Origin: a virus | Lineage: Duplodnaviria; Heunggongvirae; Uroviricota; Caudoviricetes | Reading direction: 5' to 3' (one strand) | IMG/VR virus record: IMGVR_UViG_3300032007_000008 | DNA: 64,000 nucleotides | Shown: piece after piece, positions 13,175 to 64,000 of the stretch | Layout of the letters: each line of letters opens with the position of its first letter | How positions within the stretch are numbered: the first letter of the stretch is position 1 | The notes under the pieces: model-generated | What the model saw: the letters and a program-made list of their open reading frames with translations, nothing else | Told to the model about the DNA's origin: nothing | Databases searched by the model: none | Translations under genes and position numbers: made by a program

Positions 13175-14560
13175 ATGACCAAAAAAGACAGAATATATGA
13201 AGTATTAGAAACGCTTAGTGGTCCTTATTCAGAGGACAACAAAAAACTTTTTAATTTCATAATGGCCATTCCAACAGGAGATTCATCCATTTTGTGGAAT
13301 GATGTCATGGATTTCTTGAACATATATGTCAAGATGACTATAGACGAATTGAAAACTGGAGACTATGTTGATATATCGCAACTAACTGTTAAAAATTTTA
13401 GAAAAAAATATTATGATAATGAAACATATCTAGTTGTAGTAAAAAACATAGACGAACTGAATAAGATAAAATCTCCAAAATATTTTCCCAACCATTATAG
13501 CACAGGCGATAAAGAATATGTTTATGAAAATGGAGAATTTGTAGACATAACAGACAAACATGATTTGTATCTTAAGCAATATTTAAATTTTTTCTTATTG
13601 AACAAGTGTTTTACGTACAGCAAAAAAGACGGAATCAAAAAGGGTTTCAACAGGAGAAACAGGATAATAAAAATAGACGATGACTCTATTACGTTCATCA
13701 ACAATGAAGACTGGTCGTGGTATTTGGTGAATGAATTGCTTAATTTCAGAAATTTTGTAGATTTTCTCGAAAGAAAAAACAAAATAAACAGCCTATTTTT
13801 GACGTTATTTTCATCTGTGGAAAAGGACAAGCAAACTTCCGTTGTTGAAAATAACAATAATTACGATGAAATAAAATCGAAAATAGATAAACTTAGAGTA
13901 AAGTTCTCTTCAGGATATAAAACTAAAGCAATGTCCGATTCCATCTACAAGTATCTATCGTCATGGTTTGATATAGGATACAATTCGTCCATAGTTCTTT
14001 TACCTATTAGAGATAGACTTAAAACTGTATCAAGATACATAGAGAGATATTATCCAACGGAACTGCCGCCAGCAGATGCATACAACTACTTTAATGGAAA
14101 AAATTTTAATATAGCTAATCAATCATATGGAATAAAGGATGATAAACTTAGTTTAAATATAACCTATGAAAACAGTGAGGTGACTTCTAGGTATGTTTCC
14201 AATTGGAATTATCAATATTGGGCAATAGCGTCAACAAGCGAAAATTATAACGCATTTGGAGCGACTTCAGGAGATGTAGCCGCATATTATGGATACTATA
14301 AACCGTCAAATCCATTTAAGGAGAAAGAAGACGGTGTAAATCCTGGCGTATATGGACGTGAATTTTTTATAACAGACAGTGCTGAGTCAATAAAAACATT
14401 TTGTTTTTATGCCATGTCTTCTGAAAGCGGAAAGCAATATGACAAGTTTCTCGAATTTCTGTCAAGTTCCTATTATAATTCCTCTCCGCTGTCCACAATG
14501 GAGGGACATCCTGTTTCAGGCTATATAAATGATGTATACGACATTCTTTTTTCACAGTAA
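13175..14560 (+). CDS. hypothetical protein (AT-rich)
   Basis: 461-aa ORF. Confidence 0.7.
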   Translation: MTKKDRIYEVLETLSGPYSEDNKKLFNFIMAIPTGDSSILWNDVMDFLNIYVKMTIDELKTGDYVDISQLTVKNFRKKYYDNETYLVVVKNIDELNKIKSPKYFPNHYSTGDKEYVYENGEFVDITDKHDLYLKQYLNFFLLNKCFTYSKKDGIKKGFNRRNRIIKIDDDSITFINNEDWSWYLVNELLNFRNFVDFLERKNKINSLFLTLFSSVEKDKQTSVVENNNNYDEIKSKIDKLRVKFSSGYKTKAMSDSIYKYLSSWFDIGYNSSIVLLPIRDRLKTVSRYIERYYPTELPPADAYNYFNGKNFNIANQSYGIKDDKLSLNITYENSEVTSRYVSNWNYQYWAIASTSENYNAFGATSGDVAAYYGYYKPSNPFKEKEDGVNPGVYGREFFITDSAESIKTFCFYAMSSESGKQYDKFLEFLSSSYYNSSPLSTMEGHPVSGYINDVYDILFSQ

Positions 14561-24264: not shown

Positions 24265-25122
24265 ATGGCTGAAATCGACAATTTCAAGATTATTCGAAAC
24301 CTTCTGGAGTTTAGGCTGAATACCGATAGGTATGTTCTTCATATTTTGCGTCGTCCGAAGGATTGCAAGAGCGAAGGTTTCGAAAACACACTTGGGAGTA
24401 ATGAAAAGCAGAGACTGCTCCGAACATACTATATCAATTCGGTAGACTACTTCGACAGTAAAGAGACTGCCGTGAAGGAACTTTGCCGTATAAACAATGC
24501 ACGTGCATACATCATACCACAGGTACGAAACAACAAGACGTGCATGACGAATCTTCTGAGGATTACAATCGACAATCTCGAAAATCCGACAATAAAGCCT
24601 GAGCATCTCATAAGGGCTGCATATTGTGGAAAGGGTTCCACGACAGGTATCGACAAAGACCGCAAACGTTGGGTAGTTGACATAGATAGCGACAATATGC
24701 AGGGATTTAGCGTAAGTTCCATTCGAATGGCAATCTATGATAGCTTGGCAAAATCGAAAAGAGGAGATGCGGCAGTTTACGAACTTCCGACCAAAAACGG
24801 AATGCATTTCATAACACAGCCGTTTGACGTTAAATACGCAAGCAGCAAGTGTTTTATGCTGTTCAGCGATACAAAAAGCGGAATTGACCGTGAATTGGCT
24901 GCTGATTTTCTGAAAGAACACAAATGGAATGACGATATCATCAGTTCAATTCCTGAAAATCCATTCGAAATAGAAGGATTTTTCATAAATTTGCTTAAGA
25001 AGAATTCGATACCTGTAAATACCTTGCTTGGACAATTCAGAGAACGATGCAAAAAGACTTTTACAGGATGGCTTCATAAAACAGGAATGACTCTTTTATA
25101 CACGACAAAGGAAAATACATGA
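24265..25122 (+). CDS. putative AEP (primase-polymerase)-like protein
   Basis: WVVDID (DxD) and PTKNGMH (sxxGxH) motifs. Confidence 0.45.
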   Translation: MAEIDNFKIIRNLLEFRLNTDRYVLHILRRPKDCKSEGFENTLGSNEKQRLLRTYYINSVDYFDSKETAVKELCRINNARAYIIPQVRNNKTCMTNLLRITIDNLENPTIKPEHLIRAAYCGKGSTTGIDKDRKRWVVDIDSDNMQGFSVSSIRMAIYDSLAKSKRGDAAVYELPTKNGMHFITQPFDVKYASSKCFMLFSDTKSGIDRELAADFLKEHKWNDDIISSIPENPFEIEGFFINLLKKNSIPVNTLLGQFRERCKKTFTGWLHKTGMTLLYTTKENT

Positions 25123-25856
25123 ACGAAAACACACAAAACGGAATGATGGCGAATCCCGCACAACCGCCTCCTCAGCAGGAAAAGCCTGTAGGATGGGAAG
25201 ACTCGACGATAAAGAAATTCGTAGAAAACGAATATGCTTTAATGGACAAGAAGTGGCAGGAGCAGTACGATAAGGAGACGGACGAGAAAAGGCGCGAATC
25301 GCTGAAGGCAAACAAGGAGTATGGAAAAGTTGTCCACGATTGCGTCACACAGCTTCTAAAGCTGATGTTCGAGCAGGGGCATTCAGAGCTTTCCGCAGGA
25401 TTCACTCTCGCCGAGTTTTCCCGTTTGTCCAAGTTCAAGCCGCTTTCTCCGCTAACAGGAGAAGACGACGAGTGGCAGGATGTATATGAAAATAATGGGA
25501 AGACCATTCAGCAGAACAAGAGATGTTTCAGCATTTTCCGTGAAAAGGGGGACAACTCCACCGCAGAAAATTCAGAGGGTGTCGCATTCTCCGATGATGA
25601 AGGAAAGACGTGGTACACGAACTCCCATTCGAGAGTGAAGGTTTCTTTCCCATATTCCGTGCCTGATGAAATAGCAAGGAAAATCATAACAAAGGAAGAG
25701 AAAGAGGCAATGGACAAAGCTGATGAAGAAGCATGGAATGCATTCATCAAGGAGCATCCTGAATATGTCGAAAAGCTTCGTGCGATGAGACAGGAGCGTC
25801 CAAATGTTGATAATGGCGAAATGCCAAAGGCGAGCGAGGGGGCTAATGCCAACTGA
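25119..25856 (+). CDS. conserved phage hypothetical protein
   Basis: QGHS..SA, PLSPLTGEDDEW and QNKRC motifs. Confidence 0.6.
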   Translation: MNENTQNGMMANPAQPPPQQEKPVGWEDSTIKKFVENEYALMDKKWQEQYDKETDEKRRESLKANKEYGKVVHDCVTQLLKLMFEQGHSELSAGFTLAEFSRLSKFKPLSPLTGEDDEWQDVYENNGKTIQQNKRCFSIFREKGDNSTAENSEGVAFSDDEGKTWYTNSHSRVKVSFPYSVPDEIARKIITKEEKEAMDKADEEAWNAFIKEHPEYVEKLRAMRQERPNVDNGEMPKASEGANAN

Positions 25857-29130: not shown

Positions 29131-29204
29131 GGGCCGCTAGTTCAGTGGTAGAACATCCCGTTCGCAACGGGAAAACCTGAGTTCGATTCTCAGCGTGTCC
29201 ACCA
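29131..29204 (+). tRNA. tRNA-Ala(CGC)
   Basis: ttCGCaa, G3.U70, ACCA end. Confidence 0.85.
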
Positions 29205-29302: not shown

Positions 29303-29376
29303 GGGCCGATAGTTCAGTGGTAGAATGCTTCAATGGCATTGAAGAGATGGCGGTTCGATTCCGCCCGTGTCCACCA
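29303..29376 (+). tRNA. tRNA-Ala(GGC)
   Basis: atGGCat, G3.U70, ACCA end. Confidence 0.85.
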
Positions 29377-29898: not shown

Positions 29899-29905
29899 TT
29901 GCCGA

Positions 29906-30027
29906 AAGACGCACACAGCAATTCAACTTCTAAAATTCACTGTTAATGAAAAGGCGTGGGTTCGAATCCCGCAACCGCACGGCAAAGCGGTTTAGCTTAG
30001 TGGTAGAGCTTTAAAGAAGGCGTCTAG
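29906..30027 (+). ncRNA. CAGCAA-scaffold RNA carrying circularly permuted tRNA-Asn(GTT)
   Basis: AGACGC-aca-CAGCAA; anticodon arm ctGTTaa, T arm, 3' acceptor AACCGC, linker, 5' acceptor GCGGTT, D arm; GCGTCT-AG. Confidence 0.8.
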
Positions 30028-30263
30028 TTATTTAATTTCATGCAACGGCTGCTGTATCGATGATTTGCAGAATTCAAAGTTCTGTCAACAGACAATGACG
30101 CAATAATCGATATGGTTTTAACAGCGAAAGCCTTTGCAGACTTGCAACCGCCGAGGCAGATGGAGGCGGCGGACGATGGAGGGGTGTCGCTCACCCCGTT
30201 ATCCGTATGAACCATTGGGAGTGCTGCGTCCCGCTCAGCCCGTCGAAGACGGACAACGCAGAT

Positions 30264-30379
30264 AAGTCACATGCAGCAATTAAAATTCTCCACCATTTGG
30301 GGAAATAGCATAATTGGTTAGTGCGTCCGTCGAAAGGCGGAAGGTTCTGGTTCGAATCCAGATTTAAATTGGTGACTTG
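30264..30379 (+). ncRNA. CAGCAA-scaffold RNA carrying permuted, anticodon-less tRNA with Ala identity
   Basis: AAGTCAC-atg-CAGCAA; TTCTCC-ACCA precedes GGGGAAA; D arm; TCCGTC-GAAA-GGCGGA; T arm; GTGACTT-G. Confidence 0.75.
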
Positions 30380-30391
30380 TTTTCAATCTTT

Positions 30392-30457
30392 AAGACTCAT
30401 ACAGCAACAAGCTATAAGCAATTGACAGTTAATCAATCACGCTAATACCGAGTCTTG
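30392..30457 (+). ncRNA. CAGCAA-scaffold RNA with isolated anticodon arm (GTT)
   Basis: AAGACTC-ata-CAGCAA; ATTGA-caGTTaa-TCAAT; GAGTCTT-G. Confidence 0.75.
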
Positions 30458-30461
30458 CCTT

Positions 30462-30631: not shown

Positions 30632-30805
30632 GAGAGGTGGCAGAAAAGCAGATGCAGTGTCTTTCGAGGACTGGCCATTGTCGATAATAGACGGTTTGTA
30701 AAAACGTTCCTTAAGGTTTCCGTCTGTGGTCAAGGAGTTAGCTACTCATGGAATTACCACTAATCGCATATGGCATTGGAGGTTCAAACCCTCCCCTCTC
30801 AACCA
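30632..30805 (+). ncRNA. tRNA-like RNA with large internal domain
   Basis: GAGAGG/CCTCTC acceptor + ACCA, D arm, T arm GGAGG-TTCAAAC-CCTCC, with ~115 nt between the D and T arms. Confidence 0.6.
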
Positions 30806-32062: not shown

Positions 32063-32183
32063 AAGATGCCAACAGCATATTCATTCAGCCTGGTAAGCTC
32101 GTGGTTACGGGTTCAAATCCCGTTGGACTGGCGAAAGCTGGTCTATAGCTCAATCTGGTAGAGCGCGTATATATGGCATCTTG
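32063..32183 (+). ncRNA. CAGCAA-scaffold RNA carrying circularly permuted tRNA-Thr(GGT)
   Basis: AAGATGCC-aa-CAGCAT; AGC-ctGGTaa-GCTCG, T arm, acceptor closed by GAAA, D arm; GGCATCTT-G. Confidence 0.82.
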
Positions 32184-32359: not shown

Positions 32360-32360
32360 A

Positions 32361-32448
32361 TGCGGCATGTCGCAAGACCGTGGGTTCGAATCCCACCTCC
32401 AGACAGAATGAGCTGGGCGTGACTGAGCAGGATTAAGGTGATGCCGCA
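32361..32448 (+). ncRNA. permuted tRNA-like RNA opened at the anticodon (YrlA-like topology)
   Basis: TGCGGCAT...ATGCCGCA stem enclosing a variable arm, T arm, loop-closed acceptor and D arm. Confidence 0.6.
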
Positions 32449-32455
32449 ACACTTT

Positions 32456-32794
32456 GGGGGTGAACAGGTTTTCGACTGTATCATTCCGTAGAAGATGGCA
32501 ATTCGGACAAGCATGATGCCCGTTAAAGCATATGCGAAAAAAAGTAAACGGCAACGATTACAGAATGGCTGCTTAAGCCGACGAAAGGGAATGACCTCCG
32601 ATAGCTCCTGAGTAGTTTCATCATCGGAGCGGCTTCGCGAAGTTTGGCCTTCATAGCGCGGCGGCACATCAAGGCTATAGGGGAAACGAGGTCTGTGTCT
32701 CTCGCCAACCCGAAATCGATGACACGATGAATGATTGTAGCAAGTCTTCGAACGAAGTTATAGGACGCGGGTTCGATTCCCGCCACCTCCACCA
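32456..32794 (+). ncRNA. ssrA: tmRNA
   Basis: GGGGGTG...TTCGAC 5' end; GACGCGGGTTCGATTCCCGCCACCTCCACCA 3' end with G3.U70; tag frame ...GNDYRMAA*. Confidence 0.93.
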
Positions 32795-33072: not shown

Positions 33073-33223
33073 AAGACGTGAAACTGCAACAAAACAGGAA
33101 TACGCTAATCCGATGGTCGTAGGTTCAAATCCTACCTGTGCGGCAAACGGGTGATTCCGTCCCGCACGGTAGCTCAGCGGTTAGAGCATCGGACATTTCT
33201 ACGCCTTGTGCGTTCGCGTCTTG
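33073..33223 (+). ncRNA. CAGCAA-scaffold RNA (CTGCAA variant) with permuted tRNA opened in the anticodon loop (GCT)
   Basis: AAGACGTGAA...TTCGCGTCTT-G; GCTAA-TCCGA, T arm, CTGTGCGG/CCGCACGG acceptor, D arm, TCGGA. Confidence 0.78.
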
Positions 33224-34842: not shown

Positions 34843-34905
34843 TACAAAAAATTGTTGCGTACATGGGGTTGTTGTGGTATAATTTACGGCAACAAAGGAA
34901 AAAAT

Positions 34906-36831
34906 ATGTCAAACAAAGTTCTAGGAATAGACCTTGGCACAGGAAATTCCTGCATGTCAATTCTTGAAGGTGGAAGTGCAACTATAATCACGAATGCAGA
35001 GGGTGCTAGGACAACACCCTCAATAGTAGCGTTTACAAAGACCGGAGAACGACTGGTCGGCCAATCCGCGAAGAGGCAGGCCGTTACAAATCCTAAGAAC
35101 ACCGTGTATTCGATAAAACGCTTTATAGGGCGGAAATACTCGGAGGTTACGGAAGAGGCAAAGCTTGTCCCATACGAAGTCGTTGAGGCTGCAAATGGCG
35201 ATGCACACGTTAAAATTGACGGAAAGACGTATTCGCCAGAGGAAATTTCATCGTTTATCCTCGCAAAGCTTAAAAAGGATGCGGAGTCGTATCTTGGAGA
35301 AGAGATTACTCAGGCCGTAATAACGGTGCCAGCATATTTCAACGATTCGCAGAGACAGGCCACGAAGAATGCCGGACGAATAGCTGGGCTTGATGTTTTG
35401 CGAATCATAAACGAGCCTACGGCAGCTGCTTTGGCATATGGTTCCGGCAAGGATAAGTCCGGTGTCGTGGCAATCGCCGACTGTGGATGCGGTACATATG
35501 ACATTTCAATCCTCGATGTTGGCGATGGCGTGTTTGAAGTCAAAGCCACGAACGGAGATACACACCTCGGTGGAGATGATATCGACCAGTGCGTCATGAA
35601 GTGGCTCATCGAGGATTTCAAGGCACAAAACGGAATTGATTTGTCAGCCGACAACATGGCGTTGCAGAGAATCAAGGAAGAGTCGGAAAAGGCGAAATGC
35701 GCACTTTCTACCGAAAGCACATATTCAATCAGCCTTCCGTTTATAACTGCTGACGCTACAGGGCCGAAGCACCTTGAGGCTACAATTACCCGCTCAAAGC
35801 TTGAGGAGCTTTGCGATGGCGTAATCGACAGGCTTGTTGCTCCTGCAAATAGCTGCATAAAGGATGCAGAAGCAGGTTCAATCAACGAAGTTCTTCTCGT
35901 CGGAGGAATGACGAGAATGCCATGCGTACAGCGCAAAATAAAGGATATTTTTGGCATAGAACCTTCGAAGGGAGTAAACCCAGATGAAGCTGTCGCGATG
36001 GGAGCTGCAATACAGGGCGGAATTATAAAGGGTGAGGTCAAGGACACCCTTCTTCTCGACGTTACACCGCTTACACTCTCAATCGAGACAATGGGCGGAA
36101 TTGCAACTCCAATCATAACGAGAAACACGACTATTCCCACGAAGAAAAGTCAGATTTTCTCAACGGCTGAGGACAACCAGCCTGCTGTAGATATTCACAT
36201 CACGCAAGGCGAAAGAAAGTTTTCAAACGACAACAAGTCTCTTGGACGGTTTAGGCTTGATGGAATTCCGCCTGCTCCACGCGGAGTGCCTCAGATAGAA
36301 GTAAGTTTCGACATCGACGCTAATGGAATACTCAGTGTAGCTGCGAAAGACCTTGGAACCGGCAAGGAGCAGAAAATTACCATTACCGCCTCATCGGGGT
36401 TGTCCAAAGAGGACATAGACAAGATGACTGCCGACGCAGAGAAGTATGCAGACGAAGACAAGAAGAGGTCGGAACTTGTCGGATTGAAAAACAACGCCGA
36501 TGCGATTGCTCATTCGTCCGAGAAATCGGCAAACGAGCACAAGGAACGGCTTGGAAATGACCTGTATGACCGAGTTATGTCGGCAGTAAAATCGGTTCGT
36601 GAAGCTGCGAAGGGAGATTCTTCAGATGCGATAAAGACTTCCATGGACGAATTGAACAAGGTCAATGAGGAGGTGGCAAAGGTGATTTATCCAAGTTCAA
36701 GCAGAAGCAATCCGGCAAGCGGAATGTCGGAACAAGACCTAAAGAACATGTTTGGGGGGAGTAATGGTCCGTTCAGTGGGTTCTCAAAGGGTGGATTCGG
36801 CGGAAATAACGACAACGTGGTGGATGTCTAA
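34906..36831 (+). CDS. dnaK: Hsp70 chaperone DnaK
   Basis: [44 protein letters not shown] and [12 protein letters not shown]; AAAGGA RBS. Confidence 0.97.
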
Positions 36832-43435: not shown

Positions 43436-44701
43436 ATGCAGTATTCACGAGAGCAAAACACCCGCATGATTGCGGAAGCATATACGAAAATGTATGAAGC
43501 CGAAGTGCCGTCAAAGCACTACGGCTTTTATGTCCTTTCTCCAGACAAGAAGCTTATTGAGGAAAATCCAAGCCTATTCTACAGTACGAAGCGTGGACAG
43601 GATGTTGATATTTCCCAAGAATACTATGAGCCAGAACTTCTTGGAGGAAGGGATTATGACGACGAGGGAAACCCATCTGAGAGGAAATACTTCTATGAAT
43701 GGGATGGTAATGTTGATTATGGCAATCTCGATTCCTCTGTGCCAGAAGAAGCCATGTTCTACATAAACGGCGGCAGCATACTGGTAGTTTATGAATACGA
43801 AAACGGAGTTCAGAAAAACCCACGGTTTTTCAAAGCTCTACAGCGTGGGTGGAGAGAACTTTCGGACGACGGAACAAATACCCTCATGGTGAAGCTTTCG
43901 TGGTTCAAGAATGGCAAATCGATGTCGTGGGACGAGATATCATCGTTTATAGACGATTCTCAGAAAGTCGCAAAGCAGTATGAGCAGCTAAAGAAAGAGA
44001 ATCTTGTCACCGACGGAACAAGACCAAATGGCTCCGTGGCTATTCGAGTAGGCGGAAAAGACGAAATATGGAAGTCTCCGATAGCTGCGATAAAATACTA
44101 TAAGTTTGCGGCATCGGAAACCGACGGTTCGGAATCGCAACGCTACAGCAAAATAGCATATAGACTTCAAAACGGAGAAACGGAAGTTTCGGACGACACA
44201 TCCGTGGTTCAGGAAAGCGATTGGACGAACACCATGCCTGACCAGAATCCGGATGGATACGCTTTTGGAGTAATGCCATATTTCATAAAATACGAAGATG
44301 GCGGATTCGTCCCCTATCACCTTTCAAGCAGAAAGTTCGTGGAAAATGACAAGGAGATAATGGTTATAGAGCTTAAGGACTATCTTGTGTCCATAACGAA
44401 TGCGATAGCTTCGAGAAATCATTCTGTTCCTTTCAACGTTTCCGCAGAAAAGACGGATAACGGACTTCTTGTCCTTGACGGTGACGAGGTGAGAATCGCT
44501 CAGATGTTCAACCATTGCATTTTGGTTTCGCTTGACGGTAATCCAGACGGAAATTCAAAGTTGTCCGATTCTGAATCGAAGTCATATGTTGTTCTTGGGG
44601 TGAATTCTCCAGACGACGAAAGCAGCATAATGGAAATACTACAGTCGGTTGTGGACAGCTGCGATGGCATGGATGGCTTTACGAACGGTTATTCGAAATA
44701 G
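43436..44701 (+). CDS. multidomain late protein with RxIAEAY N-terminal motif
   Basis: CTAAATAG at 43404; NTRMIAEAYTKMYEAE; internal VQES. Confidence 0.7.
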   Translation: MQYSREQNTRMIAEAYTKMYEAEVPSKHYGFYVLSPDKKLIEENPSLFYSTKRGQDVDISQEYYEPELLGGRDYDDEGNPSERKYFYEWDGNVDYGNLDSSVPEEAMFYINGGSILVVYEYENGVQKNPRFFKALQRGWRELSDDGTNTLMVKLSWFKNGKSMSWDEISSFIDDSQKVAKQYEQLKKENLVTDGTRPNGSVAIRVGGKDEIWKSPIAAIKYYKFAASETDGSESQRYSKIAYRLQNGETEVSDDTSVVQESDWTNTMPDQNPDGYAFGVMPYFIKYEDGGFVPYHLSSRKFVENDKEIMVIELKDYLVSITNAIASRNHSVPFNVSAEKTDNGLLVLDGDEVRIAQMFNHCILVSLDGNPDGNSKLSDSESKSYVVLGVNSPDDESSIMEILQSVVDSCDGMDGFTNGYSK

Positions 44702-46526: not shown

Positions 46527-47759
46527 ATGGACGAGAACCTTTCCGATATCAAGCCGCGTTACCTGATAATGGTGACTGCCGACAACCATAACAAATTCTA
46601 CAAGCAGATTCCCCATGGAAGCTCATGGACTGCCGAATACGGTAGGGTTGGTTGCAGTTCGCAGACAAGAGATTATCCGATGTCTCTCTGGGACAAGAAG
46701 TACAACGAGAAGTTGAGGAAAGGCTATATCGACCAAACCGAACTCGTAAAGGAACTCATAACTGAAAATACCGACGACAGCGGAAAAACAGAAGCCGAGA
46801 TAGAGAACAAAGCCATTGCGGATGTCGTCAAAAGGTTGCAGAAATATGCAAAGGTCGCAATCAGCGAAAACTACACCATTTCTGACAACAAGGTAACGCA
46901 GTCAATGGTTGATGAGGCACAGCGTGTATTGTCAGAACTTGTCGGCATAACTACCGTTGCCGATTTCAACGAGAAGCTTCTCAAGCTGTTCAACACGATT
47001 CCGCGAAAGATGGATAAGGTTCAGAACTACCTCTCCACAAAGACATCGGAGTTTGCGGAAATCATAAGCCGCGAGCAGGACATTCTCGATGTCATGAAGG
47101 GACAGGTCGTTCAGAACACGCAAGTGGTAAAGAAATCTTCAGATTCGTCGCAGAAGAAGGAGACCGAGACGATACTTGACAAGATGGGTCTTGAGTTCTA
47201 CGAATGCGACAAACCTGAGATTGAGATAATCAAGAAGAAGCTCGGTTCGTGCGCTTCTATGCTCAAGAACGCATGGCGCGTCGTGAACAAGAAGACGCAG
47301 GCCAAGTTCGACAAGTTCGTAAGTGACAATAAGGTCAATGAGCGCGACCTTCTGTGGCATGGCTCTCGAAACGAGAATTGGTGGAGCATCATCAACCTTG
47401 GCCTCGTTCTCAACCCGACAAATGTCGTTATAAGCGGTCATATGTTTGGCCATGGGCTGTATTTCGCAAATCGTGCGAAGAAAAGTTTCGGGTACACTTC
47501 CGGAAATGGAAGCTATTGGGCGCGTGGGTATTCTAATACGGCATTTCTGTCGCTGTTCGACGTTGCCATGGGCAAGTCATTTTATACGGCAAACCACAAA
47601 TACGAGTATTATGACTACAACTGGAACACGTTTACCAAAAAGCATCCGAACTGCTTGAGCTTTTTCGCAAAGGGAGGTGCAGACCTTCGAAACGACGAGA
47701 TTATCGTATACCGTGACGACCAATGCACGATAAAGTATCTTGTTGAATTGAGCTGCTAA
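46527..47759 (+). CDS. poly(ADP-ribose) polymerase-like protein (WGR + helical regulatory + catalytic domain)
   Basis: NHNKFY...YGRVG...EKLRKGY (WGR); helical region ending in IPR; LWHGSR, GHMFGHGLYFA and LRNDEIIVY (H-Y-E triad). Confidence 0.9.
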   Translation: MDENLSDIKPRYLIMVTADNHNKFYKQIPHGSSWTAEYGRVGCSSQTRDYPMSLWDKKYNEKLRKGYIDQTELVKELITENTDDSGKTEAEIENKAIADVVKRLQKYAKVAISENYTISDNKVTQSMVDEAQRVLSELVGITTVADFNEKLLKLFNTIPRKMDKVQNYLSTKTSEFAEIISREQDILDVMKGQVVQNTQVVKKSSDSSQKKETETILDKMGLEFYECDKPEIEIIKKKLGSCASMLKNAWRVVNKKTQAKFDKFVSDNKVNERDLLWHGSRNENWWSIINLGLVLNPTNVVISGHMFGHGLYFANRAKKSFGYTSGNGSYWARGYSNTAFLSLFDVAMGKSFYTANHKYEYYDYNWNTFTKKHPNCLSFFAKGGADLRNDEIIVYRDDQCTIKYLVELSC

Positions 47760-61566: not shown

Positions 61567-62666
61567 GTGAAACCCTAAATATGGACAAAGGGTCGCATTG
61601 CATTCGACAGGGAAACGACCAAAGAAGGAAAACAAACACGATGTCATACAGCAAGACAAACAGAACGATAGCGGAGGTGGCGTAATGCTTATAGCGGGGA
61701 GAAATACGATGCTCAAAGAGGGGGGGGGGGGCTGGTGCCAAGAAATATATCCAAGATGGGCTTATTGCGATGTGGGACGGAATCGAAAACGCTGGTTGGA
61801 GAAAGCATGACGATAATATACTGACATGGAAAAATCTCGGCTCGCTTGGAAGTGACTATGACGCAACTAGACAAAGCGGTGCATGGCAAAAAGACGGAGC
61901 TATTATATCCACCGACATGGGTAATTCTACCGTTTTTGTCATTCCAAATAATATTATGGGCGGGCAAATGAAAGGCGAATGGACTTACGAAATAGGCTTC
62001 ACGCCAACGCATAAATGGAAATCGAACTATCATGGACTCTTGGGCAATCACATCAACCAGAAAGGTATAGTAGGCGGTCAATATGAAAATGGAGAAATTG
62101 TGTTCAACCTATTTTCTCCAGTCGTACAGCTTTATAGAGTGCGAGCAGATGTTTTTGAAGATAATATCAGACATACGATTTCGCAAGCTGCGTCAAATAC
62201 ATCTCGAACCGCAACTACGTGGAAAGATGGGGCTATAGTAAGTTTATCTACAGATGTGGATGTTCTTTTGACCATAACCTCGCCTTATGCCTTCATCGGG
62301 TCTGCGGAGGGCGATAGAGTAGCCGGTACAGACCGTGTTTTCGACGGTGTGATACATTTCCTGCGCATCTACAACCGCAAATTGACAGACAAAGAAGAAA
62401 AACACAACCATTCCATTGATAAGATTCGCTATGGACTTCCGTCATGACATGAGATTCATGGACTGCTGCGGCTGAAACCAGACCACAAAGCAACTCTCCG
62501 CCGCGCATTAGCCATTCCGCCAAGCGCAGATGCTTATCGAACGGCGGCGCATCACCACGCTTAAACCACGGTGAAACCCTAAATATGGGCAAAGGGACGC
62601 ATTGCGTCCGACAAGGAAAAACGAACACGATGTCATACAACAAGACGGACAGGACGATAGCGGAGG
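61567..62666 (+). repeat. ~100-bp imperfect direct repeat (61567-61677, 62571-62666) of late promoter + RBS + gene start
   Basis: GTGAAACCCTAAATATGG.CAAAGGG.CGCATTGC...AAC.AACACGATGTCATACA.CAAGAC..ACAG.ACGATAGCGGAGG. Confidence 0.85.
61685..62447 (+). CDS. LamG/concanavalin-like domain protein, frameshifted at a G12 tract
   Basis: MLIAGRNTMLKE-G12 is out of frame with AKKYIQDGLIAMWDGIENAG...FDGVIHFLRIYNRKLT..E; a G11 tract restores one ORF. Confidence 0.65.
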
Positions 62667-64000
62667 CTTACGGAAAGATGCTCTGCGGAGAGGGAAGGCG
62701 GCCGGACGAGGGAAAGGCCGAACGGATAGCCGCCGACAGGATGAAGGACGGGCTTGAGGCCGACGGCGAAGAGAGGCAGGACGCACAGACGGGGCAGGCC
62801 CTGAACGACGCCGCGCTCAAGGTCAAGGAGCTTATAGGGTGGAATCCGGTCGGCGGAGTGTGCATCGTCGGCGGTTCGTTCCGTCCGAAGTACGGCGGAC
62901 GCGGATGGAACGGAAACGGATTCGCGCCGATGACCCTTGAGCAGTTCGTGTCGTCGGCGGTGCGCTGCTGCACGGCTGAGGCTCACGATGTCGTCAGGCA
63001 GACTGCGGACATAGTAGGCTCGGAGGTCTACCTTGCTGACGAGAACACCTTCCAGGGACTCGTCAAGGATGTCATGGCCGACGGAATGACGGCTGACGAC
63101 TACCCCGAGTACTACATGCACAGCGTCGCGCTCGTGTACCACGGTCACGACGGCTCGCTGACGCTCATGGAGATTCTGAACGACTCCTACTACGGACAGC
63201 AGCCCTTCCTCTTCGAAGACCCTAGGGGTCGCGACTTCATACTTTCCAAGATTCTCGAAGCCTATCCGTTCCTCAGGCCGTATGCCGACAATTCCGACAG
63301 GCGCTTCATCGGCTTCACGCTTCCTCCGTCCCTGTCCAGGGACATAGAGGGCGCGGTGGCGAAGAGGGGGCAGAGACAGCCTTCCCTCGCCGACAGCGAA
63401 TGGGAGGAGAGGAACGTCTACGACAAGTTCGACCCAAGAACGGGAGAGTACGACACGCAGTACAACATCGACGTGAGGAACGCCTACAGGGACAGGTATG
63501 GCGACGGCGATGGAGACGGCAAAAAGGAAACGGGAGGAAAGGTCTCGGAATCGTCAGCCCCATACGGGGACGACGACAGCATAAGGGACGTTGCCGCATG
63601 GTTCGGAGAGTGGCTTGAATCCTACGAGGACGGAAGCGAGACTTTCGCCGGAGACCACGGCTGGATTCTGAAAAGGCTTCTCAAGATAAAGGATTGGATG
63701 TACGCCAAGCTCGACGAGGAGCCTGTCGAGGGGGAGATGTCCGAATCGAGGGGTTTCGTCAGGAAGCTCGCCAACGGATGCTCGCTCCACGACCTCGGAG
63801 ACGTTTTCGTGGTCACGGACAGGAACGGAAGGAACATAGGGCAGTGCAGAACGGAAACCGAAGCCGAAGGCATAGCGGAAGAGCAGTCGGAAAGGTGGGA
63901 GCTTAAGGACGGCAGGCACATACCGCCTTCCGCAAACCTCTCAGACCCCGAGGAGAACCGATATTGGCAGAAGAAGTACAATGCAGCCAAGGACATGGAA
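62630..64000 (+). CDS. large late protein with RTIAEAY N-terminal motif (runs off the right edge)
   Basis: ATG 62630 MSYNKTDRTIAEAYGKML... after CTAAATA and an AAGGA RBS; GC3-rich frame with no stop listed before the window end. Confidence 0.7.
   Translation, partial: MSYNKTDRTIAEAYGKMLCGEGRRPDEGKAERIAADRMKDGLEADGEERQDAQTGQALNDAALKVKELIGWNPVGGVCIVGGSFRPKYGGRGWNGNGFAPMTLEQFVSSAVRCCTAEAHDVVRQTADIVGSEVYLADENTFQGLVKDVMADGMTADDYPEYYMHSVALVYHGHDGSLTLMEILNDSYYGQQPFLFEDPRGRDFILSKILEAYPFLRPYADNSDRRFIGFTLPPSLSRDIEGAVAKRGQRQPSLADSEWEERNVYDKFDPRTGEYDTQYNIDVRNAYRDRYGDGDGDGKKETGGKVSESSAPYGDDDSIRDVAAWFGEWLESYEDGSETFAGDHGWILKRLLKIKDWMYAKLDEEPVEGEMSESRGFVRKLANGCSLHDLGDVFVVTDRNGRNIGQCRTETEAEGIAEEQSERWELKDGRHIPPSANLSDPEENRYWQKKYNAAKDME

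What the first reader, a model, noticed from the sequence alone, without database searches (positions are those of the whole stretch)
30264..30379. Permuted, anticodon-less tRNA with alanine identity inside the scaffold
Seen: the 3' acceptor strand TTCTCC-ACCA comes first, then TTT, then the 5' strand GGGGAAA, a D arm, an anticodon arm capped by GAAA instead of a 7-nt loop, and a T arm. Pairing gives G3.U70 and A73. Established: G3.U70 is the AlaRS determinant, and two-piece tmRNAs are matured in this permuted way. Inference: removing the 3-nt linker would give a two-piece, alanylatable RNA that cannot decode, resembling a tmRNA tRNA-like domain without the message.
Basis: partly seen in the sequence, partly recalled or inferred. 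Interest (0 to 1): 0.72.

Follow-up and report, generated by a model that had tools for sequence, protein, structure and literature searches.

The report
Phage Y-like RNA carrying closed tRNA mimic
This 116-base stretch is a real, conserved small RNA gene in a jumbo phage: a tRNA-shaped module with a sealed acceptor end and no anticodon, mounted on a "handle" shared by a widespread phage RNA family that I found in no catalogue. Its alanine-tRNA look is not conserved, and it is not a tmRNA relative.

Summary
At 30264-30379 a 7-bp terminal helix plus CAGCAA encloses a tRNA-shaped module. The 3' acceptor strand with ACCA is joined by UUU to the 5' strand, followed by a D arm, a 6-bp anticodon stem capped by GAAA, and a T arm. 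Rfam's tRNA model scores the core at 37.7 bits.

In the one ortholog found (L007), pair 3:70 is A-U, not G.U, and the U linker has 5 bases, not 3. GAAA becomes GCAA, so a GNRA cap is kept, and the T stem changed on both sides. Three more distant relatives have the same topology (L043, L030, L028), but with ordinary 7-base anticodon loops, no CCA and no G3.U70. No tmRNA feature is present.

The element is one of 13 "CAGCAA-handle" RNAs in this phage's tRNA array. The handle recurs in many unrelated IMG/VR phages. Nine of ten such records encode a DUF2828 protein, against none of four controls, and my model of that protein matches Ro60. The best reading is therefore a Y-RNA-like tRNA mimic. RNase P nicking at the linker is plausible, because M. 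smegmatis YrlA is cut that way, but it is untested.

No Ro60-like gene lies in the 64 kb seen, out of about 291 kb. This scan had already noted the handle family on other genomes.

The parts
30264..30270 (+). Handle, 5' strand of the terminal helix (AAGUCAC)
   Evidence: Pairs with 30372-30378. It is identical in L007 and extended to 9 bp in L043.
30271..30279 (+). Unpaired AUG + CAGCAA, the conserved handle motif
   Evidence: The motif follows the 5' strand in all 13 elements of the window and in handle elements of many IMG/VR phages.
30280..30285 (+). 5' joiner UUAAAA. It could pair with 30363-30367, but this pairing is not kept in L007.
30286..30304 (+). Closed acceptor hairpin: 3' strand UUCUCC, loop ACCA-UUU, 5' strand GGGGAA (G3.U70, A73)
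   Evidence: Six canonical pairs. L007 has GGAGAA (A3-U70) and the loop ACCA-UUUUU. Relatives L043, L030 and L028 pair with unrelated sequences and have no CCA.
30305..30325 (+). A7, U8 A9, the D arm (GCAU / AAUUGGUUA / GUGC) and G26
   Evidence: Falls within the Rfam tRNA match. A14, G18, G19 and A21 are present. The D stem pairs in all five relatives apart from one A-A.
30326..30341 (+). Anticodon stem of 6 bp capped by the GNRA tetraloop GAAA; there is no 7-base loop
   Evidence: L007 has GCAA, and a U.G pair becomes C-G. L043, L030 and L028 have 5-bp stems with 7-base loops. Tetraloop caps at this position occur in other handle RNAs.
30342..30362 (+). Variable region AGGU and the T arm (UCUGG / UUCGAAU / CCAGA)
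   Evidence: Falls within the Rfam tRNA match. The first T-stem pair is U-A here and G-C in L007, a change on both sides.
30363..30371 (+). 3' joiner, A-rich (UUUAAAUUG)
   Evidence: A similar UUAAAA-type joiner occurs in L007, L043, L030 and L028.
30372..30379 (+). Handle, 3' strand GUGACUU plus the conserved terminal G
   Evidence: The ending CU(U/A)G is shared by the family.

Best explanation
The element is one gene of a family of small, stem-closed RNAs that I call CAGCAA-handle RNAs. They lie on the tRNA strand between the 39 tRNA genes and the tmRNA gene of a jumbo phage of about 291 kb.

All members share a handle. It is a 6-9 bp terminal helix that starts (A/U)AG and ends CU(U/A)G, with unpaired A-CAGCAA just after the 5' strand. 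The cargo inside the handle varies from member to member.

The cargo here is a full tRNA-shaped module:
- the elbow nucleotides are intact;
- the acceptor arm is sealed by an ACCA-UUU loop;
- the anticodon stem is capped by a GNRA tetraloop;
- the chain enters and leaves between the T stem and the acceptor 3' strand.

Most likely it works as Y RNAs do. The handle docks on a Ro60-shaped ring protein (DUF2828 + vWA). The tRNA-shaped module is then shown to proteins that recognise tRNA shape, such as RNase P, CCA and modification enzymes, or host nucleases aimed at tRNA. It cannot be decoded.

Shown: the fold, its conservation, membership of the family, the link between the family and DUF2828, and the Ro60-like fold of DUF2828.

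Inferred: binding, the role of the module, and possible nicking by RNase P at U|G (30298|30299). Such nicking would leave a two-piece RNA ending in ACCA(UUU). The arrangement probably arose from a head-to-tail tRNA dimer.
For: Fold:
- The Rfam tRNA model scores 37.7 bits over positions 5-66.
- Folding z-scores are -2.7 and -4.0.

Conservation:
- The ortholog L007:9171-9285 lies in the same gene order: tRNA-Arg, element, element, tRNA-Gly, tRNA-Tyr.
- It shows a both-sided change in the T stem, U.G to C-G in the anticodon stem, G.U to A-U in the acceptor, and GAAA to GCAA.
- The same topology occurs in L043, L030 and L028, with unrelated stem sequences that all pair.

Family:
- A strict pattern finds 13 elements on the + strand inside the array, plus one spurious hit beside it, and only 2 spurious hits on the other strand of the 64 kb.
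- Orthologous elements occur in L001 and L007.
- The handle, with covarying stems, recurs many times per locus in unrelated IMG/VR phages, mostly in tRNA arrays.
- Neighbouring members at 29949-30012, 32100-32167 and 33095-33210 hit the tRNA-like domain of YrlA at 31-36 bits.

Partner protein:
- DUF2828 is present in 9 of 10 handle-bearing virus records and 0 of 4 control records.
- Handle elements directly flank that gene in 4 of 7 loci.
- The top 12 PDB matches of my DUF2828 model are Ro60/TROVE structures, E 5e-7 to 3e-4, aligned over the full length.

Precedents:
- YrlA is a tRNA mimic with a closed acceptor arm, and M. smegmatis YrlA is cut by RNase P and receives CCA (PMC4201824).
- A phage Ro60 binds phage Y-like RNAs (PMC12135203).
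Against: - No DUF2828 or TROVE gene lies in the 64-kb window or in related loci L001-L018. Only about 22% of the 291,589-bp contig could be seen.
- Neither the target element nor the minimal neighbour tested separately matches any Rfam family other than tRNA. The handle carries ACAGCAA, not the GNCGAA motif that Rsr binds.
- Only one close ortholog was found, so conservation of ACCA and of the GNRA cap rests on two sequences that are 89% alike.
- The TM-scores of the DUF2828 model to Ro60 are modest (0.3-0.5) and its mean pLDDT is 73.
- There are no expression data.
Confidence: 0.6

Rival explanations
1. The linker is removed, giving a two-piece RNA with a free ACCA end. AlaRS charges it through G3.U70 and A73, and it acts like the tRNA-like domain of a tmRNA without a message.
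For: - The window sequence has G1-C72, G2-C71, G3.U70, G4-C69 and A73-CCA.
- ACCA is kept in L007.
Against: - L007 has A3-U70.
- L043, L030 and L028 lack both CCA and G3.U70.
- The acceptor stem is 6 bp plus an A-A mismatch, while the YrlA paper links cleavage to a 7-bp stem.
- There is no tmRNA-like feature, and ARAGORN and RF04321 give no hit.
- The phage has its own standard tmRNA.
- At 89% overall identity, retention of ACCA in L007 is expected by chance about 63% of the time.
Confidence: 0.1
2. A cis-acting processing module. The handle is a leader-trailer helix that organises cutting of the long tRNA-array transcript, and the tRNA-like cargo merely recruits RNase P or RNase Z. There is no free-standing functional RNA and no Ro-like partner.
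For: - The elements sit 2-10 nt from tRNAs, on the same strand.
- In other phages the same handle encloses natural-order tRNA-like genes, for example L045 1895-2011 and L027 8646-8528.
- No Ro-like gene lies in the window.
Against: - Handle elements also lie directly beside DUF2828 genes.
- The invariant single-stranded ACAGCAA and the conserved end nucleotides look like a protein-binding site.
- Many members carry only a small hairpin, with nothing to process.
Confidence: 0.15
3. A decaying remnant of a tandem tRNA duplication with no function of its own.
For: - The order '3' strand, ACCA, short U spacer, 5' strand' is what a head-to-tail tRNA dimer gives.
- No anticodon is present.
- The G.U pair is not conserved.
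Against: - All five helices are kept in the ortholog, with compensating changes, and a GNRA cap is kept.
- The module is enclosed by the conserved handle.
- The same topology recurs in unrelated phages.
- No tRNA of this phage is a close parent.
Confidence: 0.07

Closest known systems
YrlA, the bacterial and phage Y RNA that mimics tRNA (Rfam RF02553; Chen et al. 2014, PMC4201824)
   Same: - A small RNA closed by a terminal stem that carries a protein-binding motif on its 5' strand.
- A tRNA-shaped domain with T arm, D arm and an acceptor arm closed into a hairpin; no decoding.
- Three neighbouring family members hit the YrlA tRNA-like domain at 31-36 bits.
   Different: - In YrlA the terminal stem leaves at the anticodon-stem position. 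Here it leaves between the T stem and the acceptor 3' strand, and a separate capped anticodon stem is present.
- The handle motif is ACAGCAA, not GNCGAA.
- There is no RF02553 hit on this element.
- The linked protein elsewhere is DUF2828, not a Pfam TROVE Rsr.
Yrn1 of Deinococcus radiodurans (Y RNA; described in PMC4201824)
   Same: Same order along the RNA: D-like region, then an anticodon-like arm, then the T arm, with the terminal protein-binding stem near the acceptor position.
   Different: Yrn1 has no separate closed acceptor hairpin and a 6-nt anticodon-like loop. It binds canonical Rsr and PNPase. I made no sequence comparison.
Class I RNAs of dictyostelid amoebae (Kjellin et al. 2021, PMC7919456; search pattern in PMC5054030)
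   Same: - A 6-bp covarying terminal stem.
- A conserved start, AAG.
- A conserved unpaired motif right after the 5' strand that ends in ACAGCAA (GTTGRC-CTTACAGCAA ... GTCAAC-TG).
- A variable interior.
   Different: - They are 42-65 nt, with no tRNA-like cargo.
- They end in CUGU rather than CU(U/A)G.
- They are eukaryotic, and reported as absent outside Dictyostelia.
- No Rfam family matches even the minimal phage member.
Two-piece (permuted) tmRNA
   Same: In the gene order, the 3' acceptor strand with CCA comes before the 5' acceptor strand. In this window the acceptor end is alanine-like.
   Different: - No tag reading frame, resume codon or pseudoknots.
- Full D stem and anticodon stem.
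- A 3-5 nt linker instead of an excised segment.
- G3.U70 is not kept in the ortholog.
- No hit by ARAGORN or RF04321.
Circularly permuted tRNA genes of the red alga Cyanidioschyzon merolae (from my own knowledge)
   Same: The 3' part of a tRNA is encoded upstream of the 5' part, and the termini are held together by a helix.
   Different: Those genes mature through a bulge-helix-bulge motif and a circular intermediate into decoding tRNAs. Here there is no such motif and no anticodon.

Membership tests
Decoding tRNA (tRNA-Ala) | Free 5' and 3' acceptor ends in natural order | tested here: not met
   The acceptor strands are joined by ACCA-UUU, and the chain is open between the T stem and the acceptor 3' strand. 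ARAGORN calls no tRNA here.
Decoding tRNA (tRNA-Ala) | Seven-base anticodon loop with an anticodon | tested here: not met
   The stem is capped by the GAAA tetraloop, GCAA in L007.
Decoding tRNA (tRNA-Ala) | G3.U70 as a conserved identity element | tested here: not met
   G.U in the window; A-U in L007; G-C, G-C and A-U in L043, L030 and L028.
Decoding tRNA (tRNA-Ala) | D and T arms with the conserved elbow nucleotides | tested here: met
   Rfam tRNA scores 37.7 bits over positions 5-66. U8, A14, G18 G19, U54 U55 C56 and A58 can be read in the sequence.
Two-piece tmRNA | Tag-peptide frame, resume codon and pseudoknots | tested here: not met
   The element is 116 nt and fully taken up by the handle and cloverleaf. 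ARAGORN gives no call, and RF04321 gives no hit on it at E up to 5.
Two-piece tmRNA | tRNA-like domain without an anticodon stem and with a reduced D arm | tested here: not met
   A full 4-bp D stem and a 6-bp anticodon stem are present.
YrlA (RF02553) | Covariance-model score at or above the gathering score of 69 bits | tested here: not met
   No hit on 30264-30379. The neighbours score 30.9, 36.2 and 35.4 bits.
YrlA (RF02553) | Order T arm, closed acceptor hairpin, D arm, with the terminal stem at the anticodon position | tested here: not met
   Here the order is acceptor hairpin, D arm, anticodon stem, T arm. The YrlA order is seen in the neighbour at 29906-30027.
YrlA (RF02553) | GNCGAA(N)G motif on the 5' strand and an adjacent rsr (TROVE) gene | tested here: not met
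   The motif here is ACAGCAA. No TROVE or DUF2828 gene lies in the window.
CAGCAA-handle RNAs (uncatalogued; defined here and in earlier notes of the scan) | Terminal helix of 6-9 bp starting (A/U)AG and ending CU(U/A)G, with covarying interior | tested here: met
   AAGUCAC / GUGACUU-G. Stems differ and still pair across the 13 elements of the window and across the loci scanned in IMG/VR.
CAGCAA-handle RNAs (uncatalogued; defined here and in earlier notes of the scan) | Unpaired (A)CAGCAA within 0-4 nt of the 5' strand | tested here: met
   AUG-CAGCAA at 30271-30279.
CAGCAA-handle RNAs (uncatalogued; defined here and in earlier notes of the scan) | Genome encodes a Ro60-like DUF2828 protein | tested here: inconclusive
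   Present in 9 of 10 other handle-bearing records and 0 of 4 controls. None lies in this window or in L001-L018, but only 64 kb of 291.6 kb is visible.
Dictyostelid Class I RNAs | 42-65 nt RNA with a 6-bp terminal stem and an 11-nt motif ending in ACAGCAA | tested here: inconclusive
   The stem and the ACAGCAA part are shared (PMC5054030; PMC7919456). The length, the cargo and the 3' end differ. No Rfam hit was obtained on the minimal neighbour 30392-30457.

The most novel reading that the evidence does not exclude
In this phage lineage the sealed acceptor loop is opened by RNase P and trimmed to ACCA. A Ro60-like particle would then carry a nicked, anticodon-less tRNA mimic with a real, chargeable 3' end. 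The G3.U70 version in this window would be alanylated and the A3-U70 version in L007 would not. Such a mimic could bait or sense host factors that act on tRNA acceptor ends.
Probability: 0.08. Interest if true: 0.8.

Novelty: new variant of a known kind. Interest (0 to 1): 0.62.

Why it matters
Y RNAs with Ro60 are known from animals, some bacteria and a few phages. This element belongs to a much wider phage family that is missing from Rfam 15 and from the papers I could search.

The family mounts tRNA parts, in several circular orders, on one conserved handle. The handle travels with a Ro60-shaped protein known only as DUF2828, and it has the same build as the unexplained Class I RNAs of social amoebae.

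This member shows that the cargo can be a whole tRNA body stripped of both working ends. That points to recognition of tRNA shape, not decoding, as the selected property. It is also a simple substrate for testing RNase P nicking, charging and binding by the Ro-like protein.

Tried and rejected
Searches that found nothing:
- blastn of 29900-30460 against GenBank phages gave no match.
- DnaK peptide patterns in IMG/VR found no relative.
- An exact 24-mer from the element was absent from IMG/VR.
- No whole genome is held for the window.
- A look-up by the protein at 61770-62447 found nothing on record.

Searches with limited yield:
- The pattern AAGTCACATRCAGCAA in IMG/VR gave 48 loci, mostly chance hits without the 3' strand. 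Only L043 is a relative of the same topology.
- Relatives at about 69% radical-SAM identity (L002, L005, L006) have tRNA arrays with other inter-tRNA elements but no CAGCAA handle.
- MAFFT misaligns the acceptor hairpin (A1, A2), so I parsed the stems by hand and did not build a covariance model.

Checks that came back negative:
- A single-sequence fold of DUF2828 failed, with pLDDT 40.
- A profile of seven DUF2828 proteins found no Ro60 by sequence in the PDB. Only the fold comparison did.
- The unassigned ORFs 13175-14560, 43436-44701 and 62585-63997 are not DUF2828-like.
- No tRNA of the window is a close parent of the module.
- The possible second helix between the two joiners is not kept in L007, so I dropped it.

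Readings considered and rejected: group I intron, self-cleaving ribozyme, RNase III site, integron-like DNA hairpin, and bulge-helix-bulge circularisation. In each case the required motifs are absent or do not fit the one-sided ACAGCAA bulge.

Full report
**Setting**

The window comes from a jumbo phage. It holds 39 tRNA genes and a standard tmRNA (32456-32794, 106 bits) on the + strand. Flanking genes are a Tad3-like gene and ClpP upstream (with a GroES gene between them in the ortholog L007), then DnaK, methylases and a radical-SAM gene, with a PARP-like gene further on. No whole genome is held.

**The observation**

In order it contains:
- a 7-bp terminal helix, AAGUCAC/GUGACUU;
- unpaired AUG-CAGCAA;
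- a short joiner;
- the acceptor 3' strand UUCUCC, then ACCA, then UUU, then the 5' strand GGGGAA;
- U8 A9 and a D arm with A14, G18, G19 and A21;
- G26;
- a 6-bp anticodon stem capped by GAAA;
- a 4-base variable region;
- a T arm with UUCGAAU;
- a 9-base A-rich joiner and the other strand of the helix.

The acceptor pairs are G1-C72, G2-C71, G3.U70, G4-C69, A5-U68 and A6-U67, with A73.

Rfam's tRNA model matches 30303-30365 at 37.7 bits (gathering score 29). It matches model positions 5-66 only, which is everything except the acceptor strands. The predicted minimum-energy fold recovers the handle, the acceptor hairpin, the capped stem and the T arm, with z = -2.7.

**Relatives of the element**

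Through the ClpP gene upstream of the array I reached L007, an ENA contig whose ClpP is 81% identical. It carries the whole orthologous array between ClpP and DnaK. L007:9171-9285 is the ortholog, in the same order: tRNA-Arg, element, element, tRNA-Gly, tRNA-Tyr.

Compared with the window:
- the handle is identical;
- the first T-stem pair changed on both sides (U-A to G-C);
- a U.G pair in the anticodon stem became C-G;
- the cap is GCAA instead of GAAA, so still GNRA;
- the U linker has 5 bases instead of 3;
- ACCA is kept;
- pair 3:70 is A-U instead of G.U.

The ortholog folds with z = -4.0.

A pattern scan of IMG/VR for the handle, followed by my own scan for the complementary 3' strand, turned up three more elements of the same topology in unrelated phages. 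These are L043:295-406(-), L030:5392-5507(+) and L028:1865-1982(-). L043 even shares the handle sequence and the T arm.

In a hand-made structural parse of the five sequences, 120 of 121 pairs in the four cloverleaf stems are canonical, although the stem sequences are largely unrelated. The handle also pairs throughout once the L030 strand is shifted by one base. These three relatives have ordinary 7-base anticodon loops (GAA, UAU and GAU in the middle). None has CCA in the acceptor loop, and none has G3.U70.

So the closed-acceptor tRNA shape is the conserved thing. The GNRA cap and the ACCA loop are peculiar to the window/L007 lineage, and the G.U pair to the window alone. Tetraloop-capped stems in place of an anticodon arm do occur in other family members.

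**The family**

- A strict pattern finds 13 elements on the + strand inside the tRNA array, plus one spurious hit beside it. It finds only two spurious hits on the other strand of the 64 kb. The pattern is: start (A/U/C)AG, stem, at most 4 nt, C(A/U)GC(A/G)A, and 3' complement ending CU(A/U)G.
- Orthologs with compensating stem changes occur in L001 and L007.
- In IMG/VR the same handle, with different but always complementary stems, occurs up to ten times per locus in many unrelated contigs, mostly in tRNA arrays.

Of 181 distinct elements:
- 120 carry no T loop (hairpins and other folds);
- 37 have a T loop in the 5' half or middle, the YrlA-like order;
- 12 have it next to the 3' strand, including the five of the present topology and shorter ones in which the handle replaces the acceptor stem;
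- 12 enclose a natural-order tRNA-like gene (checked).

Three neighbours in this window match the tRNA-like domain of YrlA at 30.9-36.2 bits, below the gathering score of 69. Neither the target element nor the minimal member at 30392-30457 matches any Rfam family beyond tRNA at lenient thresholds.

**The likely partner**

Earlier notes of this scan claimed that the handle travels with a Ro60-like DUF2828 protein. I tested this.
- DUF2828 (PF11443) is present above its cut-off in 9 of 10 handle-bearing IMG/VR records. The exception is a fragment judged 14% complete. It is present in 0 of 4 control virus records of similar size and in 0 of 14 control genomes. My own Fisher's exact calculation on 9/10 versus 0/4 gives about 0.005.
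- In 4 of the 7 loci around those genes, handle elements lie directly beside the gene.
- The proteins also carry DUF7788 and a weak vWA match.
- A model built from seven of them (mean pLDDT 73) has Ro60/TROVE structures as its top twelve PDB matches. These include Xenopus and human Ro60, D. radiodurans Rsr and Thermus phage phiLo Ro60. They align over the full length, E 5e-7 to 3e-4, TM 0.3-0.5.
- A sequence profile alone did not find Ro60.

In this window I found no such gene. Pfam on 20 ORFs, my own HMM on all six frames of the window and of L001-L018, and profile comparisons of the unassigned ORFs were all negative. About 78% of the genome is out of reach.

**What the literature adds**

- YrlA is a tRNA mimic with a closed acceptor arm. 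M. smegmatis YrlA, which has a 7-bp acceptor stem, is cut by RNase P in vivo and in vitro and then receives CCA, giving a two-piece Rsr-bound RNA. YrlA and Yrn1 have their D and T arms in opposite orders (PMC4201824).
- A phage Ro60 binds phage-encoded Y-like RNAs that have a 5'-3' stem and a CGAA bulge (PMC12135203).
- Jumbo phages are noted to encode TROVE proteins "with a tRNA-like partner" (PMC7824862).
- Dictyostelid Class I RNAs have a 6-bp covarying terminal stem, a conserved AAG start, and a motif right after the 5' strand that ends in ACAGCAA (PMC7919456; pattern in PMC5054030). This is the same build as the phage handle.
- I found no paper on DUF2828 function or on this phage RNA family.

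**Verdict**

The element is a genuine, conserved member of a Y-RNA-like family. Its cargo is a tRNA body with both working ends disabled.

The alanine identity is not a conserved property, and the tmRNA comparison fails every feature tested except gene order. Cleavage at the linker is a reasonable and testable idea with a YrlA precedent. However, the acceptor stem here has only six pairs plus an A-A mismatch.

The ACCA-U(n)-G junction looks like the seam of a head-to-tail tRNA dimer, which is probably how the module arose. That origin is inference. No tRNA of this phage is a close parent.

Noticed in passing
window 30135-30263 (and 30035-30130): A structured RNA of about 125 nt lies directly upstream of the element and is strongly conserved in L007. 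Three of its pairs changed on both sides, and it is closed by a UUGC/GCAG helix. The window has a 96-nt insertion before it that L007 lacks. It matches no Rfam family and has no CAGCAA handle.
   Followed up: partly
window 29131-29201 and 29303-29373: Two tRNA-like genes are called by Rfam (49.3 and 47.5 bits), each with the same three mismatched pairs in the middle of the acceptor stem (GGGCCG.. / ..GUGUCCA) and a G.U at 3:70. ARAGORN calls only the first, as tRNA-Ala(CGC).
   Followed up: no
window 30632-30805: This stretch starts and ends like a tRNA (acceptor strands, T arm, ACCA), but about 100 nt sit in place of the anticodon region. Earlier notes of the scan also flagged it.
   Followed up: no
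window 32360-32455: Just upstream of the tmRNA, a 9-bp terminal helix (AUGCGGCAU / GAUGCCGCA) encloses a T-arm-like hairpin without the CAGCAA motif. It may be a second kind of stem-closed element.
   Followed up: no
L045:1895-2011, L027:8528-8646(-), L024:1316-1431, L061:5607-5722(-): In other phages the same handle encloses natural-order tRNA-like genes (Asn, Gly, Lys by ARAGORN) with weak, A/U-rich acceptor stems and no CCA.
   Followed up: partly
L002:13800-17500(-), L005:14500-18500(-): More distant relatives (radical-SAM 69% identical; contigs up to 255 kb) have tRNA arrays with conserved non-tRNA elements between the genes, some with T arms. These use other closing stems, for example GCUCAUC followed by GCAACGG, and lack the CAGCAA handle.
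   Followed up: no
window 29906-30027 versus L007:8908-9035: The YrlA-like neighbour is conserved in L007, but its anticodon-like loop differs (CUGUUAA versus CGGUAUU) and its 3' end reads CGAG instead of CUAG. The displayed 'anticodon' is therefore not fixed between close relatives.
   Followed up: partly
window 25119-25856, 46527-47759, 34852-36831: The phage encodes a Tad3-like (anti-Thoeris) protein, a PARP-like protein with a weak WGR match, and its own DnaK. GroEL and a family-B DNA polymerase lie just beyond the window's start.
   Followed up: no
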